Part shown: positions 16,222 through 34,255 of the stretch, piece by piece
Position numbering within the stretch: position 1 is the first letter of the stretch
Layout of the letters: every line of letters starts with the position of its first letter
Sequence record: OR424386.1
Source of the DNA: Escherichia phage vB-Eco-KMB25
Reading direction: 5' to 3' (one strand)
Length of the DNA: 50,475 nt
The notes under the pieces: model-generated
What the model was told of the DNA's origin: nothing
Seen by the model: the letters and a program-made list of their open reading frames with translations, nothing else
The model's database searches: none
Made by a program: the position numbers and the translations under genes

Positions 16222-19200
16222 ATGATCAAAAATATGATAACTGGCAGTAAGGGCGGTTCTTCAAAGCCTCATACACCTGTTGAAATGGAAGATAACCTAA
16301 TTTCAATTAACAGGATCAGAATTCTTTTAGCCGTTTCTGATGGTGAAGTTGATCCAGACTTTTCATTGAAAGATTTATATTTTGATGACGTTCCGGTTAT
16401 GAATCAGGATGGTTCACTAAACTTTCAGAATGTTAAGGCAGAATTCAGACCAGGGACGCAAACGCAGGATTATATTCAGGGGTTTACTGATACAGCCAGC
16501 GAAATTACAGTTGCTCGCGATCTGACAGCCTCAACGCCTTATATTATTTCTGTTACCAATAAAAACCTTTCTGCGATCCGTATTAAAATTTTAATGCCTC
16601 GCGGGGTTACTCAGGAAGATAACGGAGATCTAACAGGTGTTCGCGTTGAATATGCTGTTGATATGGCTGTTGATGGTGCTGAATATAAAGAGGTTTTTTA
16701 TGATGTAATTGAAGGTAAAACAATGAGCGGTTACGACAGAAGCCGCCGAATTGATTTACCTGCTTTCAATGAGCGTGTTTTATTGCGCGTCCGCCGCCTG
16801 ACAGATAGCACGTCAGCAAGGGTAACGGATCTGATTAAAATGCAAAGCTATGCGGAAGTTGTAGACGCTAAATTTCGTTACCCCCTGACTGGTTTAGTAT
16901 ATGTTGAGTTTGACAGCGAATTATTCCCTAATGCGTTGCCGAATATCAGCATTAAGAAAAAATGGAAAATCATTAATGTTCCGTCAAATTATGATCCTAT
17001 TTCCCGCACTTACTCAGGGTCATGGGATGGAACCTGGAAAAAGGCATGGAGTAATAACCCTGCTTTTGTTCTGTATGATTTGATTACCAATCAGCGTTAC
17101 GGACTCGATCAAAGAGAATTAGGCATCGCGCTTGATAAATGGAGCATTTACGAATGTGCGCAGTATTGCGATCAGATGGTTCCAGACGGTAAAGGCGGAA
17201 CAGAGCCGCGCTATCTTTGCGACGTTGTGATCCAGAGCCAGGTAGAAGCGTATCAGCTTGTGCGTGATATTTGTTCAATCTTCCGTGGCATGAGCTTTTG
17301 GAATGGTGAGAGCCTTTCAATCGTGATCGATAAGCCTCGCGATGCGTCATACATCTTTACTAATGACAACGTGGTTAACGGTGAATTCACTTACACGTTT
17401 GCCAGCGAAAAAAGCATGTACACGCAATGCAACGTGACTTTCGACGATGAACAAAACATGTATCAACAGGATGTTGAGGGAGTTTTCGAAACGGAGGCGG
17501 CGTTACGCTTTGGCTATAACAGCACGTCAATTACTGCGATTGGATGCACACGACGCAGCGAAGCCAACCGCCGTGGACGCTGGATTTTAAAAACCAACGT
17601 CAAGAGCACAACGGTAAACTTTGCTACAGGTCTGGAAGGTATGATCCCAACCGTAGGCGATGTGATTGTTGTATCGGATAACTTTTGGTCAAGCGCTCTA
17701 ACGCTGAATCTATCAGGTCGCGTGATGGAGGTTAGCGGGTTGCAGGTGTTCACGCCGTTTAAGGTTGACGCAAGAGCAGGTGATCGCATTCTGGTAAATA
17801 AGCCGGATGGTAAACCAGTTGGTAGAACCATTGCTAGTGTGAGTGATGACGGTAAAACGCTAACGCTAAACACGACATTTGGTTTTGACGTTCATCCGGA
17901 TACCATTTTTGCAATTGAGCGAACCGATATTGCACAGCAACGATATATTGTAACTGGAATCACTAAGGGTGACGGTGATGAAGAATTTACCTACAACATA
18001 ACGGCTGTTGAATACGATCCGAACAAATACGATGAAATTGATTATGGCGTAAACATTGATGACCGTCCGACTTCAATCGTGCAGCCTGACATTTTGCCAG
18101 CACCGCAAAACGTCAAGATCGAATCTTATTCGCGAGTTATTCAGGGCGCGAGCGTGGAAACAATGCACGTTTCATGGGATAAAGTTGAATACGCAAGTCT
18201 GTATGAAATGCAGTGGCGAAAAGACAATGGCAACTGGAACAATACGCCGCGAACCGCGAACAAGGAAACGGAAGTTGAAGGTATTTATGCGGGTAACTAT
18301 CACGTAAGGGTTAGATCTGTTGCGGCTAATGGTTCAGCGTCTGGATGGTCTGCAATAGTAAGCGCAGGATTAACCGGAAAAGTGGGAGAGCCGGAAAAGC
18401 CAATTAACCTTACAGCGTCAGATAATGAGGTTTTCGGCATTCGCGTAAAATGGGGTATGCCGGAGGGAAGCGGAGACACGGCCTATATAGAGTTGCATCA
18501 AGCGCCAAACGGTGCTGATGGTCATCCTATCGTTGATGAAGCAACGCTCTTAACGCTGATACCGTTCCCGCAATATGAGTATTGGCATTCAATACTGCCA
18601 GCGGGTCATGTTGTCTGGTACAAGGCAAGAGCAGTTGACAAAATCGGTAACGTTTCTGATTGGACTGATTTTGTGCGCGGCATGGCTTCCGACGATACAA
18701 GCATTATCACGGATCATATTAAGGTCGATATTGAAAATTCTGATGGCTATAAGTGGTTGCAGGAAAACGCAATAAAGACCAATGATAAGATCCACAGCAC
18801 AGCGGAATCAGTGATTGAAAACGCATTAGCTAATGATAAAGATGTTCGACGTATGCGAGTTGAAAACGGAAAGCGTAAAGCGGAGTTCTTGCAATCGCTG
18901 AAACTCATTGCAGACGAAACAGAAGCTAGGGTAACACAGGTCACTCAAATGAGTGCGCAATTTGACGAGAAATTAACGGCTCAAAATAGCGAATTGAGAG
19001 AGGTAATTGCTAACAGCACTGAAACCATTAGCCAAAGGATTGATCAGCTTACAGCTACGTTTGATAGCGAAATTGATGGGGTTAAGCAGGATATCAAAGC
19101 GCAGATAACTGATGTTAACCAGGCAATCACCAATGAAGCGGAAGCGCGAGCGTCAGCAGATAGGGCGTTATCAACTCAAATTGGAGATACCCAATCAGCA

Positions 19201-19680
19201 GTGAATCAGAAACTTGATTCTTGGGTTAATGCCGATAGCGTTGGTGCGATGTACGGCGTTAAGTTGGGGATCAGGTATAACGGGCAGGAATATAGCGCGG
19301 GTATGGCTCTTTCCCTTGTTGGTGACGGATCAGGAGTTAAATCACAATTCCTGTTTGATGCTGGACGATTTGCGATCATAAACAACCAACAGAGCGGAAC
19401 GTTTTCTCTTCCTTTTGTTGTTGAAAATAATCAAGTATTCATGAATAGTGCGTTTATTAAAGATGGTACTATTACGAATGCAAAGATAGGGGGTTATATT
19501 TCATCAAATAACTATGTTTGGAATCAATCAGGATGGTATCTTGGCAAGGATGGACAGTTCTATAACTTTGGTTCTACTCCTGGCGAGGGTGCGATGAAAC
19601 AATCCAATGAAACAATCAGCGTAAGGGATCAGAATGGTGTTCTTCGCGTTCAAATAGGAAGAATAACCGGAGTGTTTTAA
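16222..19680 (+). CDS. central tail fibre / host specificity protein (lambda J-like)
   Basis: 1152 aa; N-terminal GSKGGSSKPHTP and central VPSNY..YSG.WDGT..NNPAF..QYCDQ.VPDG.GGTEPR blocks resemble lambda gpJ as recalled from memory. Confidence 0.85.
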   Translation: MIKNMITGSKGGSSKPHTPVEMEDNLISINRIRILLAVSDGEVDPDFSLKDLYFDDVPVMNQDGSLNFQNVKAEFRPGTQTQDYIQGFTDTASEITVARDLTASTPYIISVTNKNLSAIRIKILMPRGVTQEDNGDLTGVRVEYAVDMAVDGAEYKEVFYDVIEGKTMSGYDRSRRIDLPAFNERVLLRVRRLTDSTSARVTDLIKMQSYAEVVDAKFRYPLTGLVYVEFDSELFPNALPNISIKKKWKIINVPSNYDPISRTYSGSWDGTWKKAWSNNPAFVLYDLITNQRYGLDQRELGIALDKWSIYECAQYCDQMVPDGKGGTEPRYLCDVVIQSQVEAYQLVRDICSIFRGMSFWNGESLSIVIDKPRDASYIFTNDNVVNGEFTYTFASEKSMYTQCNVTFDDEQNMYQQDVEGVFETEAALRFGYNSTSITAIGCTRRSEANRRGRWILKTNVKSTTVNFATGLEGMIPTVGDVIVVSDNFWSSALTLNLSGRVMEVSGLQVFTPFKVDARAGDRILVNKPDGKPVGRTIASVSDDGKTLTLNTTFGFDVHPDTIFAIERTDIAQQRYIVTGITKGDGDEEFTYNITAVEYDPNKYDEIDYGVNIDDRPTSIVQPDILPAPQNVKIESYSRVIQGASVETMHVSWDKVEYASLYEMQWRKDNGNWNNTPRTANKETEVEGIYAGNYHVRVRSVAANGSASGWSAIVSAGLTGKVGEPEKPINLTASDNEVFGIRVKWGMPEGSGDTAYIELHQAPNGADGHPIVDEATLLTLIPFPQYEYWHSILPAGHVVWYKARAVDKIGNVSDWTDFVRGMASDDTSIITDHIKVDIENSDGYKWLQENAIKTNDKIHSTAESVIENALANDKDVRRMRVENGKRKAEFLQSLKLIADETEARVTQVTQMSAQFDEKLTAQNSELREVIANSTETISQRIDQLTATFDSEIDGVKQDIKAQITDVNQAITNEAEARASADRALSTQIGDTQSAVNQKLDSWVNADSVGAMYGVKLGIRYNGQEYSAGMALSLVGDGSGVKSQFLFDAGRFAIINNQQSGTFSLPFVVENNQVFMNSAFIKDGTITNAKIGGYISSNNYVWNQSGWYLGKDGQFYNFGSTPGEGAMKQSNETISVRDQNGVLRVQIGRITGVF

Positions 19681-19720
19681 AATGTGGGGCGCATGCCCCA
19701 CTAATTAAAGAGGTGATTTT

Positions 19721-20029
19721 ATGAGTTACGATATTGCAACATGGGACGCAAACGGCGTTTACAATAACTATGGAATTAAGCCAGTTTCAGTAATATCAAA
19801 TATACAACTTTCATCAGGTCAAACATCTGGGCAATGGTTTTTTAATGTTCCACAAGGTAAAAAATTAGGCTATGTTGTTGGTCTTGATATTGGAGGTACT
19901 CAGGTTGGAAGGAAGATTGAAGTTTCTGGAAATTCTATAATTGTTAGCGCAGCATTATCTGGAAACGTAGGTTATAATTATTACCCTGCATCGCAATGTG
20001 AAGTTATCGTGTATTTGGAGAATGCATAA
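19721..20029 (+). CDS. small tail-associated protein (hypothetical)
   Basis: 102 aa with strong RBS AAAGAGGTG; contains WDANG motif shared with the ORF at the window end. Confidence 0.3.
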   Translation: MSYDIATWDANGVYNNYGIKPVSVISNIQLSSGQTSGQWFFNVPQGKKLGYVVGLDIGGTQVGRKIEVSGNSIIVSAALSGNVGYNYYPASQCEVIVYLENA

Positions 20030-20279
20030 TGTCTTATGGAGCAATGATTGATTACAAAAGTCAAACTTTCATAACGCCGGAATCAACTCCTTTTGTTAGG
20101 TTTACATTCCTGGTCAACAGCCTGTTATTGTTAACGTTTCTGCATATACTGCGGCAAGTTTTAACGGGTCAACAACGAGAATAAATGCCGCATCCAATCA
20201 GGCGGCTGGCGGTTCTCCTGTCGGTTATCTGAATACAGGCGTTGCGGTGACGGCAATTAATACAGCATCTTATGACTAA
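20029..20279 (+). pseudogene. frameshifted paralogue of the 3' part of the gene at 50018-50475
   Basis: ORF from ATG 20029 stops at 20184; the -1 frame (20100-20279) encodes VYIPGQQPVIVNVSAYTA... and is identical over at least 54 nt to 50422-50475; an in-frame TAG sits immediately before the homologous segment. Confidence 0.35.
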
Positions 20280-20306
20280 AAAAAGGAGGCTAAAGCCTCC
20301 TTTTTA
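20278..20306. terminator. bidirectional rho-independent terminator
   Basis: GGAGGC-TAAA-GCCTCC hairpin flanked by an A-run and a T-run between convergent genes. Confidence 0.6.
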
Positions 20307-20537
20307 TTAAATGCTACAATCTGAGTTTTTGAAGTTATCAACGCTCACCCACTGATAACTGAACGGGTATCCAGGCTTAACAAGAGTACGATCACCCACT
20401 CTCTTAACACCGAATATTGCAACTTCATAATTCATGCCGCTGTTTTCATATGTGGCGCTACATTCTCTCTTTGGCATGTTTGAACATCCAGTAATTAGAA
20501 TTGATGCGGCAATTGCTGCAATGATTGATTTTTTCAT
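20307..20537 (-). CDS. small lipoprotein, Cor-like superinfection-exclusion candidate
   Basis: 76 aa from ATG 20537 (RBS AAGGAA); lipoprotein signal MKKSIIAAIAASILITGC; convergent and adjacent to the tail fibre genes, as Cor is in T1/phi80-type phages. Confidence 0.45.
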   Translation of the reverse strand: MKKSIIAAIAASILITGCSNMPKRECSATYENSGMNYEVAIFGVKRVGDRTLVKPGYPFSYQWVSVDNFKNSDCSI

Positions 20538-20585
20538 GGTTATTTCCTTGTCATTTTGAATTTGGTTCATAGTTTGTGTGAGATA

Positions 20586-20640
20586 ACTATGCTACTAAAA
20601 TCCAATTGTTGCAAGTATTGTTTTTAGCAAAAAGTGCTAT
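20586..20640 (-). promoter_or_regulatory. promoter of the lipoprotein gene: TTGCAA-17-CATAGT with an upstream dyad box
   Basis: Minus-strand -35 at 20609-20614 and -10 at 20586-20591; box TAGCACTTTTTGCTAAAAAC at 20621-20640. Confidence 0.4.
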
Positions 20641-20723
20641 CTGTTGTTTTCTTTTGTTCCAAGGTGTTCACAACTTAATCCGGCGTAAAATTGAAAACGT
20701 CTTGATAACAAAAAGAACAAATG

Positions 20724-29648: not shown

Positions 29649-30056
29649 ATGGTTACTGATAAAGGCGATTATCTGGAGTATTACGACAAATCAGATCCAG
29701 ATGACAGAAAAGAGGAAGCGCACCAGGTTGATTCTTATTCATGGTTAACATATGAGTTTCCAATGTGGCTTGTTTGGCACACTAAAAACGAAGGGAAGAA
29801 AACAATAGGCACAGCAGTAAAGGATCAGCAAGCAGGTGTAAAAAAAGGAGTAAGCGACATTCTAATCCTGACTGGTTTTATTGGCTGCAAATATGCATTC
29901 ATTGCAATTGAGCTTAAACGAGCCAACAAGAAAGGAACTAAAGTAAGCCAGGAACAAAGGGAATTCTTGCGCCGCGTTAGGGAATGCGGAGGATTTGCCG
30001 CAGTATGCTATGGTGTAGATCAAGTAAAATTGGCTATCGCAGACGCTACAAAATAG
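29649..30056 (+). CDS. VRR-NUC domain nuclease (putative)
   Basis: 135 aa; core ...DILILTGFIGCKYAFIAIELKR...VSQEQREF... resembles the VRR-NUC D-E-K fold. Confidence 0.5.
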   Translation: MVTDKGDYLEYYDKSDPDDRKEEAHQVDSYSWLTYEFPMWLVWHTKNEGKKTIGTAVKDQQAGVKKGVSDILILTGFIGCKYAFIAIELKRANKKGTKVSQEQREFLRRVRECGGFAAVCYGVDQVKLAIADATK

Positions 30057-30096
30057 CACTTTTTGTTAAAACAGGCGCGACGGAATGCGCCATAAT
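30054..30096 (+). promoter_or_regulatory. dyad-box promoter (TAGCACTTTTTGTTAAAAC, 18 bp, CATAAT)
   Basis: Box TAG is the stop codon of the upstream gene. Confidence 0.5.
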
Positions 30097-30127: not shown

Positions 30128-30406
30128 ATGAAAAAGATGTTATCAGTAGTTGCTTTATCACTTGCCATTGTCGGTTGCATGGATAAACCAAAAACATATA
30201 TTTGCGGAAATGAAGCGTTTGAGGTTACAAGCGAATATATGAAAGTTGTGCAAGGTAAAAGCACAGGCGTTGTAATGGATAATATCAGCAAAAATCAATA
30301 TAAGCTGTTTACGCCAATTGGAACGGCTTTTTACACTGTTAACGATAGCACCATTGATATTAAAGTTGGCGTTTATCAGAACACTCTAACTTGCGAGGTA
30401 AAATAA
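30128..30406 (+). CDS. small lipoprotein (hypothetical)
   Basis: 92 aa from ATG 30128 behind GGAG; signal peptide with lipobox MKKMLSVVALSLAIVGC. Confidence 0.45.
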   Translation: MKKMLSVVALSLAIVGCMDKPKTYICGNEAFEVTSEYMKVVQGKSTGVVMDNISKNQYKLFTPIGTAFYTVNDSTIDIKVGVYQNTLTCEVK

Positions 30407-33150: not shown

Positions 33151-33375
33151 ATGAGAGACTTTCTTTTAATGGCGCAAAACTCTTTCGGAGGTGCAACGGT
33201 AGTTGGATCTTTTACTGGTGAGTTTTTGCTTGCACTTGCTACGTTTATTTTGTTCGCTATTTTCGGCTGTTGGGGCGCATGGCTGAAATGGCGTGATAGT
33301 AAAGCGATCCGAGAGGCTTTAGATTCAGGGGATTTAAAAACGGCGCTTAATCTACGGCAGAAAGAGAGGGTGTAA
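33151..33375 (+). CDS. holin (putative)
   Basis: 74 aa with hydrophobic segments and charged C-terminus, immediately upstream of the endolysin gene. Confidence 0.5.
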
Positions 33376-33869
33376 TGACAATCAAGAAAGGTATAGCCGC
33401 CACCGTCACAGGGGCGGCTTTAATGTTGGCATCGCCTTTGATTGAAGAAATTGAAGGCGTAAAGTATAAGCCTTACAAGGATATTGCGGGGATCTGGACT
33501 GTATGCCACGGCATTACAGGAAAGGATGTGATTCTTGGAAAGGAATATACCAGGCGAGAATGTGACGCGCTATTAGCAAAACACATGAAAGTAGCGGCTG
33601 ACGCTGTTGATAAGGCGGTTAATGTTGAAATTCCTTTATCAATGCGAGCGGCTCTATACTCATTCACTTTTAATGCTGGTACTGGCGCGTTTCGTAAGTC
33701 AACCATGCTGAAAAAGATCAACAATGGTGATTTATGGGGCGGTTGTGGTGAGCTATGGAACTGGACATATTACCGGAATCCTAAAACGGGTAAAAAGGAA
33801 AAATCAAGAGGATTGAAGAATCGCCGCGCCGTCGAATATAAATATTGTGTAAGGGATCTGAATAAATGA
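33375..33869 (+). CDS. endolysin, lysozyme (T4-type glycoside hydrolase), possible SAR type
   Basis: Catalytic pattern E..D..T in [26 protein letters not shown]; weakly hydrophobic Gly/Ala-rich N-terminus [15 protein letters not shown]. Confidence 0.75.
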
Positions 33870-34255
33870 AAAGAAAATTACTGGCTATTATGATGTGCAT
33901 TGCTCTTTCTGGTTGTTCAGCTTCAAGCGTGTTACCTGGTCTGATTGGTAGCAAGCCTGATATAACGGCACAGGCTGGAGCGGAGAATGTGAAACAGACT
34001 GTTGGTGTAACCGCAAAGCAGGATACATCAAGCAAGCAGGAAACCACATTCAAAGAATCGGCAGTTGGTCAAGTTGACACATCCAATAAAAAGCAGGTTA
34101 GCACTTCAAGCATTAAGGCAGATAACATCACAGCGGAAAGAATAGAGATCCGAAATAATGATGGCCTTAATGTTCCGGCAATCGCAATGGGTATCTTGAT
34201 GTTTATTGCTGGTATGCTGGCGGGGTGGACACTTAAACGTAATAAGGCGGCATAA
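33866..34255 (+). CDS. unimolecular spanin (u-spanin) candidate
   Basis: N-terminal lipoprotein signal (LSGC lipobox) plus C-terminal transmembrane segment; last gene of the lysis cassette, as for T1 gp11. Confidence 0.6.

What the first reader, a model, noticed from the sequence alone, without database searches (positions are those of the whole stretch)
20307..20537. Cor-like lipoprotein convergent to the tail fibre genes, and a second small lipoprotein at 30128-30406
Minus-strand gene 20307-20537 encodes a 76-aa protein with lipobox ITGC, convergent to and immediately after the tail fibre region, with its own promoter. This matches the known arrangement of Cor-type superinfection-exclusion lipoproteins in T1/phi80-type phages. 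A second lipobox protein (IVGC, 92 aa) is encoded at 30128-30406 in the replication module behind a dyad-box promoter; its role is unknown but it could be a second exclusion or envelope-modifying factor.
Basis: partly seen in the sequence, partly recalled or inferred. Interest (0 to 1): 0.45.

Follow-up and report, generated by a model that had tools for sequence, protein, structure and literature searches.

The report
Cor exclusion lipoprotein plus orphan lipoprotein
The first gene is an ordinary, already named Cor lipoprotein that T1-like phages most likely use to shut the FhuA receptor behind them. The second is a conserved small phage lipoprotein of unknown role that is not related to Cor.

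Summary
Both ORFs and both lipoboxes are real. Gene 20307-20537(-) is Cor: it passes NCBI's curated Cor model (61 bits, cutoff 31) and PHROG 1119 (1e-25). It is 50% identical to T1 Cor and about 80% identical to Cor of phages experimentally shown to need FhuA. An identical protein is already named "phage exclusion lipoprotein Cor". Its predicted fold and its sequence profile both pick T5 Llp, solved bound to FhuA, as the best PDB match. It closes a T1-type three-gene cassette (phrog_557, phrog_425, cor). In a Stevie-like Tlsvirus backbone, this cassette replaces the TolC-type extension of J. That kind of swap is described in the BASEL papers, so this part is known biology.

The second lipoprotein (30128-30406) belongs to phrog_7420, function unknown. 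It is a conserved accessory gene always found between VRR-NUC and dam in Tlsvirus and Webervirus, and absent in T1. It models confidently as an 8-stranded beta-barrel. It has no Cor or Llp similarity beyond the signal peptide and no sequence support for MliC/PliC. Its role stays open.

Noticed: the presumed FhuA receptor-binding gene next to cor carries a 421-nt frameshifting deletion unique to this window.

The parts
16222..19680 (+). J-like central tail fibre / tail tip protein (1152 aa), short form without the TolC-type C-terminal extension
   Evidence: Pfam Phage_Tail_Tip, FNIII-A_GpJ and Phage-tail_3. Stevie J is 1258 aa. Similarity to Stevie ends near 19433.
19721..20029 (+). First small gene of the cor cassette (102 aa, phrog_557 'outer membrane protein', homologue of T1 ST32)
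   Evidence: phrog_557 E=1.4e-26. 52% identical to T1 ST32. Same position in Motto, W011D and T1.
20029..20279 (+). Remnant of the second cassette gene (phrog_425, homologue of T1 ST31, probable FhuA receptor-binding protein). A 421-nt internal deletion at 20097|20098 shifts the frame, and the ORF now stops at 20184.
   Evidence: Six other contigs with an identical Cor carry an intact 223-aa gene here. Against L005 the flanks are 100% identical (69 nt and 182 nt) and 421 nt are missing. The gap is also seen against Motto and W011D. The truncated 51-aa product is not on record elsewhere.
20280..20305 (.). Bidirectional hairpin terminator (AAAAAGGAGGC-TAAA-GCCTCCTTTTT) between the convergent genes
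   Evidence: Folds at -18.0 (+) and -21.1 (-) kcal/mol, z -4.3 and -4.45, with 0 of 200 shuffles as stable. T1 has an annotated terminator at the same place. The simple terminator scan missed it, probably because the A/T runs extend the stem.
20307..20537 (-). cor: 76-aa outer-membrane lipoprotein, superinfection exclusion protein directed at FhuA (target inferred)
   Evidence: NCBIfam NF047972 at 61.3 bits, cutoff 31. phrog_1119 E=1e-25. 50% identical to T1 Cor. About 80% identical to Cor of FhuA-dependent phages. Best PDB match is Llp 8a60_B by both fold and profile.
20586..20640 (-). Upstream control region of cor: 21-nt TLS-type repeat ATAGCACTTTTTGCTAAAAA (20640-20621) and a weak sigma-70-like TTGCAA-17-CATAGT (20614-20586)
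   Evidence: Repeat family has 16 copies against 1.55 expected. Described for TLS. The sigma-70-like site scores 8/12, read by eye, below the scan threshold. Function not shown.
30053..30096 (+). 21-nt repeat (30053-30072), dyad GGCGC-N8-GCGCC (30074-30091) and CATAAT (30091-30096) upstream of the second lipoprotein gene
   Evidence: The element is conserved in distant T1-like phages and in T1, with different stem sequences. T1 annotates it as a terminator.
30128..30406 (+). Second lipoprotein (92 aa, phrog_7420, homologue of TLS gp60): predicted outer-membrane-anchored 8-stranded beta-barrel, function unknown

Best explanation
Gene 20307-20537(-) is a genuine cor gene. [quoted passage not shown] There the small disulfide-stapled beta-rich domain binds the periplasmic face of the ferrichrome transporter FhuA. 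Like T5 Llp, it forces the extracellular loops into a state that the phage's receptor-binding protein cannot bind. This excludes superinfecting FhuA-dependent phages and keeps progeny from being wasted on debris.

Cor is the last gene of a T1-type FhuA cassette: the J tip, phrog_557, phrog_425 and cor. Horizontal exchange placed this cassette into a Stevie-like Tlsvirus backbone, in place of the TolC-binding extension of J.

Shown here: the gene, its signals, family membership, the cassette and the mosaic. Inferred: FhuA as target and the Llp-like allosteric mechanism.

The second lipoprotein (30128-30406) is an unrelated, conserved accessory gene of Tlsvirus and Webervirus backbones. It is co-transcribed with replication genes and is predicted to be an outer-membrane-anchored 8-stranded beta-barrel. 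Its target is unknown. My best guess is a receptor-independent envelope-protective role.
For: Family membership: the curated NCBIfam Cor equivalog scores 61.3 bits against a cutoff of 31. PHROG 1119 'Cor superinfection exclusion protein' gives E=1e-25 over the full length. An identical protein is already named 'phage exclusion lipoprotein Cor'. Identity to T1 Cor is 50%, E=1e-29.

Arrangement: T1 has the same layout, J / 101 aa / 229 aa / terminator / cor(-) / recE, and the two partner genes are 52% and 47% identical.

Receptor: the mature protein is about 80% identical to Cor of JLBYU41, PeterMerian, JakobBernoulli and PaulSarasin, all experimentally FhuA-dependent. In BASEL phages the full cor cassette is found only in FhuA users.

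Link to Llp: the AF2 model (pLDDT 81.6) has T5 Llp in the FhuA complex (8a60_B) as its top PDB hit, with prob 0.99, TM 0.51 and 30% identity. The Cor profile's top PDB sequence hit is also Llp, E=0.024. Cys9 and Cys57 of the mature protein parallel the essential Llp C11-C58 disulfide. Published work places Cor and Llp in one family and describes the Llp mechanism.

Mosaic: the window is 97.6% identical to Stevie over 8000-32000 except for this locus. Stevie has nothing between J and recE. BASEL describes exactly this modular exchange, and TolC phages that lack the locus.

Second gene.
Against: No experiment exists on this protein. The target FhuA is inferred from homologues. Cor-like proteins also occur in BtuB-using phages.

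The Foldseek E-value to Llp is only 0.05 and the profile E-value 0.024, so on my data alone the Cor-Llp link is borderline. The Cor model rests on a 6-sequence alignment, and two of the five models had low confidence.

In this window the neighbouring phrog_425 gene is broken, so the cassette as a whole may not be functional here.

No sigma-70 consensus promoter was found.

For the second lipoprotein nothing points to a specific partner.
Confidence: 0.85

Rival explanations
1. The Cor homologue blocks a different TonB-dependent transporter (for example BtuB or FepA), not FhuA.
For: Cor-like proteins occur in BtuB-using Markadamsvirinae and in one Tempevirinae phage. Receptor modules are swapped often. 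The likely host is Citrobacter or Salmonella rather than E. coli K-12.
Against: The mature protein is about 80% identical to Cor of four phages with experimentally determined FhuA dependence. Both partner genes (phrog_557 and phrog_425) are present, a combination seen only in FhuA users in BASEL. It passes the Cor equivalog model.
Confidence: 0.07
2. In this particular genome the cor cassette is a decaying or defective module. With the receptor-binding gene destroyed, cor is a leftover with no role for this phage, or the deletion is an assembly artefact.
For: A 421-nt frameshifting deletion lies in the phrog_425 gene, against six contigs with an intact gene and an identical cor. The truncated product is seen nowhere else. 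There is imperfect microhomology (TTTGTT / TTAGTT) at the junction.
Against: cor itself, its SD, the upstream repeat and the terminator are intact, and the protein is 100% identical to the copies in the intact cassettes. Cor acts on the host and does not need the receptor-binding protein. A single deletion says nothing about long-term decay.
Confidence: 0.1
3. The second lipoprotein is a second superinfection-exclusion factor that plugs an outer-membrane protein used by the Tlsvirus/Webervirus backbone (for example TolC).
For: It is an early/middle-operon lipoprotein with an outer-membrane sorting signal and a small disulfide-stapled beta domain, the same general design as Cor, Llp and Rtp45. 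TolC-type Tlsvirus phages have no exclusion gene next to J. It is absent from T1 and, at E<=0.01, from Motto and the Hanrivervirus-like records, which carry cor.
Confidence: 0.2
4. The second lipoprotein is a MliC/PliC-like periplasmic lysozyme inhibitor. It would buffer leaked SAR endolysin or block muralytic activity of incoming phages.
Against: hhalign against MliC/PliC gives probability 1.5%. There is no Pfam MliC hit and no PDB sequence hit. The MliC motifs SxSGAxY and TKG are absent. Avidins, lipocalins and designed barrels score the same Z, so the fold match is generic. T1 has the same type of endolysin without this gene.
Confidence: 0.08

Closest known systems
Cor of phage T1 (ST30), and Cor of phi80, N15, HK022 and mEp167
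   Same: Same family by the curated model. 50% identical to T1 Cor over the full length. Same length, lipobox and two-Cys pattern. Same position and orientation after J plus two small genes, followed by recE.
   Different: Sits in a Tlsvirus backbone whose relatives use TolC and lack the locus. The neighbouring phrog_425 gene is truncated here.
Cor of FhuA-dependent Tempevirinae (JLBYU41, PeterMerian, JakobBernoulli, PaulSarasin, W011D, Motto)
   Same: 69-81% protein identity and the same cassette. FhuA dependence of the four named BASEL/JLBYU phages was determined experimentally.
   Different: DNA identity is only about 70%, so this allele is not a recent copy from any of them.
T5 Llp (PDB 8A60 chain B, 7QJF)
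   Same: Small outer-membrane lipoprotein with a beta-rich fold and an N-to-C disulfide. It is the best PDB match by both fold and profile. The literature places Cor and Llp in one family that binds the periplasmic face of FhuA.
   Different: Sequence similarity is marginal (E=0.024; 30% over 53 columns). T5 pairs Llp with a different receptor-binding protein (pb5) at a different locus.
Rtp45 (LptD-directed exclusion lipoprotein of phage Rtp)
   Same: Same logic and same locus type: a small lipoprotein encoded beside the receptor-binding gene downstream of J, binding the periplasmic side of the receptor.
   Different: Different target (LptDE). No sequence relation was detected or claimed.
TLS gp60 / phrog_7420 (for the second lipoprotein)
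   Same: 95.7% identical to TLS gp60 and 100% identical to the Stevie, U136B and phSE-2 proteins, in the same position.
   Different: None. The family simply has no known function.
MliC/PliC lysozyme inhibitors (for the second lipoprotein)
   Same: Comparable size, 8-stranded barrel, a Cys near each end of the chain, lipoprotein anchoring in MliC.
   Different: No sequence or profile similarity and no inhibitor motifs.

Membership tests
Cor superinfection exclusion lipoproteins (NCBIfam NF047972 / PHROG 1119) | Sequence match to the curated family model above its cutoff | tested here: met
   61.3 bits against a cutoff of 31, residues 3-75 on model positions 2-77 of 78. phrog_1119 E=1e-25.
Cor superinfection exclusion lipoproteins (NCBIfam NF047972 / PHROG 1119) | Type II signal peptide with lipobox Cys and no inner-membrane retention residue at +2 | tested here: met
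   MKK-SIIAAIAASILI-TG|C-S. The Cys is invariant in homologues. Rule-based reading, no dedicated predictor available.
Cor superinfection exclusion lipoproteins (NCBIfam NF047972 / PHROG 1119) | Encoded after J and the two small cassette genes, on the opposite strand | tested here: met
   Same order as T1, Motto and W011D.
Cor superinfection exclusion lipoproteins (NCBIfam NF047972 / PHROG 1119) | Carried by phages that use FhuA | tested here: inconclusive
   The closest homologues are in FhuA-dependent phages. The receptor of this phage itself is unknown, and its presumed receptor-binding gene is truncated.
Cor superinfection exclusion lipoproteins (NCBIfam NF047972 / PHROG 1119) | Expression inactivates FhuA and excludes FhuA-dependent phages | not testable with these tools
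   Needs plating and uptake assays.
T5 Llp family | Llp-like beta fold with an N-to-C disulfide | tested here: inconclusive
   8a60_B is the top hit, but with E=0.05 and TM 0.51. Profile E=0.024. Two conserved Cys lie at matching positions.
Cor/Llp family (second lipoprotein, 30128-30406) | Similarity of the mature domain to Cor or Llp | tested here: not met
MliC/PliC lysozyme inhibitors (second lipoprotein) | Match to Pfam MliC or to an MliC/PliC profile, including the SxSGAxY and TKG motifs | tested here: not met
   No Pfam hit. hhalign probability 1.5%. Motifs absent.
MliC/PliC lysozyme inhibitors (second lipoprotein) | Eight-stranded beta-barrel fold | tested here: inconclusive
phrog_7420 (second lipoprotein) | Full-length match to the family profile | tested here: met
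   E=3.9e-53, residues 1-92 on positions 1-92 of 92.
Spanins (second lipoprotein) | Location in the lysis cassette, plus a C-terminal transmembrane helix (u-spanin) or an embedded/overlapping i-spanin partner | tested here: not met
   The gene lies in the replication module and has no C-terminal hydrophobic segment. The real u-spanin is at 33866-34255 (phrog_1804, E=1.3e-51), after the holin and SAR endolysin.

The most novel reading that the evidence does not exclude
The phrog_7420 lipoprotein (30128-30406) could be a new kind of phage envelope factor. It would be an early-expressed, outer-membrane-anchored mini beta-barrel acting independently of the receptor module. For example, it could inhibit periplasmic muramidases (its own leaked SAR endolysin or the entry enzymes of incoming phages), or it could bind a conserved envelope machine. 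It is conserved from E. coli to Klebsiella phages and absent in T1.
Probability: 0.15. Interest if true: 0.55.

Novelty: already known. Interest (0 to 1): 0.2.

Why it matters
The Cor call matters mainly for annotation. Together with the short J and the two cassette genes, it predicts that this Stevie-like Tlsvirus lineage has switched from TolC to FhuA. This is a clean natural example of the modular receptor exchange proposed from the BASEL collection, and it is useful for predicting receptors from sequence. It adds no new mechanism.

The second lipoprotein is one of many conserved phage genes without a function. It has a confident small-barrel model, strict synteny and wide distribution in therapeutic-candidate Klebsiella phages, so it is a cheap target for a knockout or expression test. 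Nothing here shows it is unusual.

Tried and rejected
1. Pfam on both proteins returned nothing usable: DUF6491 at E=0.06 for Cor and no hit for the second protein. PADLOC returned nothing.

2. Sigma-70 scans upstream of both genes found no site on the right strand. The terminator scan missed the obvious hairpin, so I folded it directly.

3. Test of whether the second lipoprotein is a distant Cor. The PHROG hit and hhalign (95% probability) cover only the signal peptide and lipobox region. Rejected.

4. Test of whether it is MliC/PliC. I recovered MliC/PliC sequences from the PDB and built a profile. hhalign gave 1.5%. Rejected at sequence level; the fold match is generic.

5. Test of whether it tracks the TolC-type J. 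The Stevie J C-terminus is full-length in only 48 records, and Webervirus phages lack it although they carry the lipoprotein. No correlation.

6. The exhaustive profile search found only 11 representative clusters, all small lipoproteins of the same family. The one exception is a repeat-rich LapA adhesin, which I regard as spurious.

7. The BFVD fold search found only family members. The afdb50 library was unavailable.

8. A look-up of the truncated 51-aa ORF to find the window's source found nothing on record.

9. The dyad GGCGC-N8-GCGCC as a repeated 'box': only 2 matches against 1.26 expected, so the dyad sequence itself is not repeated. The 21-nt element before it is the repeat.

Full report
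**Observation.** The minus-strand ORF is present. The open frame runs from 20570, but only the ATG at 20537 has a Shine-Dalgarno sequence (AAGGAA, 6 nt upstream), and homologues begin at MKK. The product is therefore the 76-aa protein MKKSIIAAIAASILITG|CSN.... It is convergent with J (16222-19680) and two small plus-strand genes. A bidirectional hairpin at 20280-20305 separates them; it folds at -18 and -21 kcal/mol with z about -4.4. The second ORF, 30128-30406, has a GGAG ribosome-binding site and lipobox IVG|C. A six-frame scan finds only three lipobox ORFs in the window: these two and the u-spanin at 33866-34255. Both are genes under selection. Cor has dN 0.19 against Motto and W011D with synonymous sites saturated. 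The second protein has 272 phage homologues with the lipobox Cys and two further Cys invariant.

**What the first gene is.** It passes NCBI's curated equivalog model "phage exclusion lipoprotein Cor" (61.3 bits, cutoff 31). It matches PHROG 1119 "Cor superinfection exclusion protein" end to end (E=1e-25). An identical protein is already in public databases under that name. It is 50% identical to T1 Cor. The whole neighbourhood reproduces T1: J, a roughly 100-aa gene (phrog_557, 52% identical to T1 ST32), a roughly 225-aa gene (phrog_425, 47% identical to ST31), a terminator, cor on the opposite strand, then recE. The mature protein is about 80% identical to Cor of JLBYU41, PeterMerian, JakobBernoulli and PaulSarasin. 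FhuA dependence of all four was determined experimentally. A 2026 analysis found the full three-gene cassette in BASEL phages only in FhuA users.

**How it most likely works.** My AF2 model of the mature protein (pLDDT 81.6, from a shallow alignment) has T5 Llp from the FhuA-Llp crystal structure (8a60_B) as its best PDB match: probability 0.99, TM 0.51, 30% identity, E=0.05. The Cor sequence profile also ranks Llp first (E=0.024, full length). Both values are borderline on their own. They agree with two recent papers that place Cor and Llp in one family and dock Cor on the periplasmic face of FhuA. Llp needs its C11-C58 disulfide, and the conserved Cys9 and Cys57 of mature Cor sit at the equivalent ends of the chain. 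Llp binds the periplasmic side of FhuA and allosterically rearranges extracellular loops so the receptor-binding protein cannot dock. Rtp45 does the analogous thing to LptD. I infer the same mechanism for this protein. The binding partner and the phenotype are not shown here.

**Genomic setting.** The window is a Tlsvirus. It is 97.6% identical to Citrobacter phage Stevie over 8000-32000, with 95% of that stretch covered. The uncovered piece is this locus. Similarity to Stevie stops near 19433 inside J and resumes at 20644. Nothing in the phage collection matches the interval at megablast level. The best distant matches are W011D and Motto, at about 72%. Stevie and other TolC-dependent relatives have a longer J (1258 aa) and no gene between J and recE. 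This is what the BASEL paper reports for TolC phages. The same paper describes receptor loci downstream of J, with cognate exclusion genes, as frequently exchanged modules. So this lineage swapped a TolC-type J end for a T1-type FhuA cassette. Six other contigs from independent samples carry the same cassette with an identical Cor, so the lineage is natural.

**The second lipoprotein.** It belongs to phrog_7420, function unknown (E=3.9e-53). It is 100% identical in Stevie, U136B and phSE-2, 95.7% identical to TLS gp60, and 60-80% identical in most of about 200 Klebsiella Webervirus records. An exhaustive profile search found only 11 clusters at 50% identity, essentially all 88-96-aa lipoproteins with the same Y-x-C-G ... 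C-(K/E)-V pattern. No Pfam, NCBIfam, PADLOC or PDB sequence match exists. Wherever context could be read, the gene sits between a VRR-NUC gene and dam in a T1-like phage. T1 itself has only an intergenic hairpin there. So it is an accessory insertion in the replication operon. Its stop codon lies one base before the dam start.

**The "promoters".** Neither gene has a consensus sigma-70 site upstream. Both are preceded by the repeat ATAGCACTTTTTG(T/C)TAAAA(C/A). It has 16 copies in the window against 1.55 expected. Most copies lie about 55-85 nt upstream of an SD plus ATG and point in the direction of transcription. Most are followed by a variable hairpin-forming stretch and a -10-like hexamer. 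This is the 21-base repeat reported for TLS, whose function is listed there as an open question. The cor copy (20640-20621) lies right at the right-hand breakpoint of the swapped module. A weak TTGCAA-17-CATAGT follows it; I read this by eye.

**Verdict.** The Cor part is correct and already known, both as a family and as this exact protein. The second lipoprotein is a real, conserved, uncharacterised gene with no demonstrated link to exclusion. Interest is low. The only mildly unexpected items are the truncated receptor-binding gene beside an intact cor and the confident orphan barrel.

Noticed in passing
window 20029-20279 (junction 20097|20098): The phrog_425 gene next to cor (homologue of T1 ST31, probable FhuA receptor-binding protein) lacks 421 nt compared with six other contigs that carry an identical cor. 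The deletion shifts the frame, so the ORF stops at 20184. The flanks are 100% identical to L005, and the junction has imperfect microhomology (TTTGTT / TTAGTT). The truncated product is not on record elsewhere. This is either a defective variant or an assembly artefact.
   Followed up: yes
window: 16 sites, e.g. 20621-20636(-), 22123, 27599, 30057, 31381, 34551(-), 37395(-), 40875(-), 42524, 45481, 47988: The 21-nt repeat ATAGCACTTTTTG(T/C)TAAAAC has 16 matches against 1.55 expected. Most copies lie about 55-85 nt upstream of an SD plus ATG in the direction of transcription, followed by a variable hairpin-forming stretch and a -10-like hexamer about 18 nt later. It equals the TLS intergenic repeat of unknown function (PMC11447400).
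   Followed up: partly
window 19433-20644 compared with L001 (Stevie): Mosaic breakpoints of the receptor module. Identity to Stevie ends inside J near 19433 and resumes at 20644, directly beside the 21-nt repeat upstream of cor. This suggests the repeat may serve as a recombination joint between T1-like phages.
   Followed up: partly
window 30053-30096; L012:5890-6010; L010:820-925; L015:18930-19035: The element between VRR-NUC and the next gene is conserved from this phage to T1, and the hairpin stem differs in sequence but stays paired (GGCGC/GCGCC here, GCCGG/CCGGC-type elsewhere). T1 annotates it as a terminator and has dam directly after it, without a lipoprotein gene.
   Followed up: partly
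L016:4316-4582 (Klebsiella phage vB_Kpl_K50_evo8): In a Webervirus, the position taken by cor in T1 (convergent, right after a long J) holds an 88-aa protein with a signal peptidase I-type signal (...PAALA|INEK) and two C-terminal Cys. It is not a lipoprotein. It may be a different kind of receptor-linked exclusion factor.
   Followed up: no
window 33151-34255: Lysis cassette of T1 type: a 74-aa holin-like ORF, a SAR endolysin (Pfam Phage_lysozyme, hydrophobic N-terminus) and a unimolecular spanin (lipobox LSG|C plus a C-terminal transmembrane helix, phrog_1804). The spanin is the third lipoprotein of the window.
   Followed up: partly
records MG065641, MG065679 and others; ON843697; OR786094: Several T1-like phage records that carry these genes are labelled as Campylobacter, Pseudomonas (Motto) or Streptococcus (MBBL140) phages. 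Their closest relatives are coliphages, so the host labels look doubtful.
   Followed up: no
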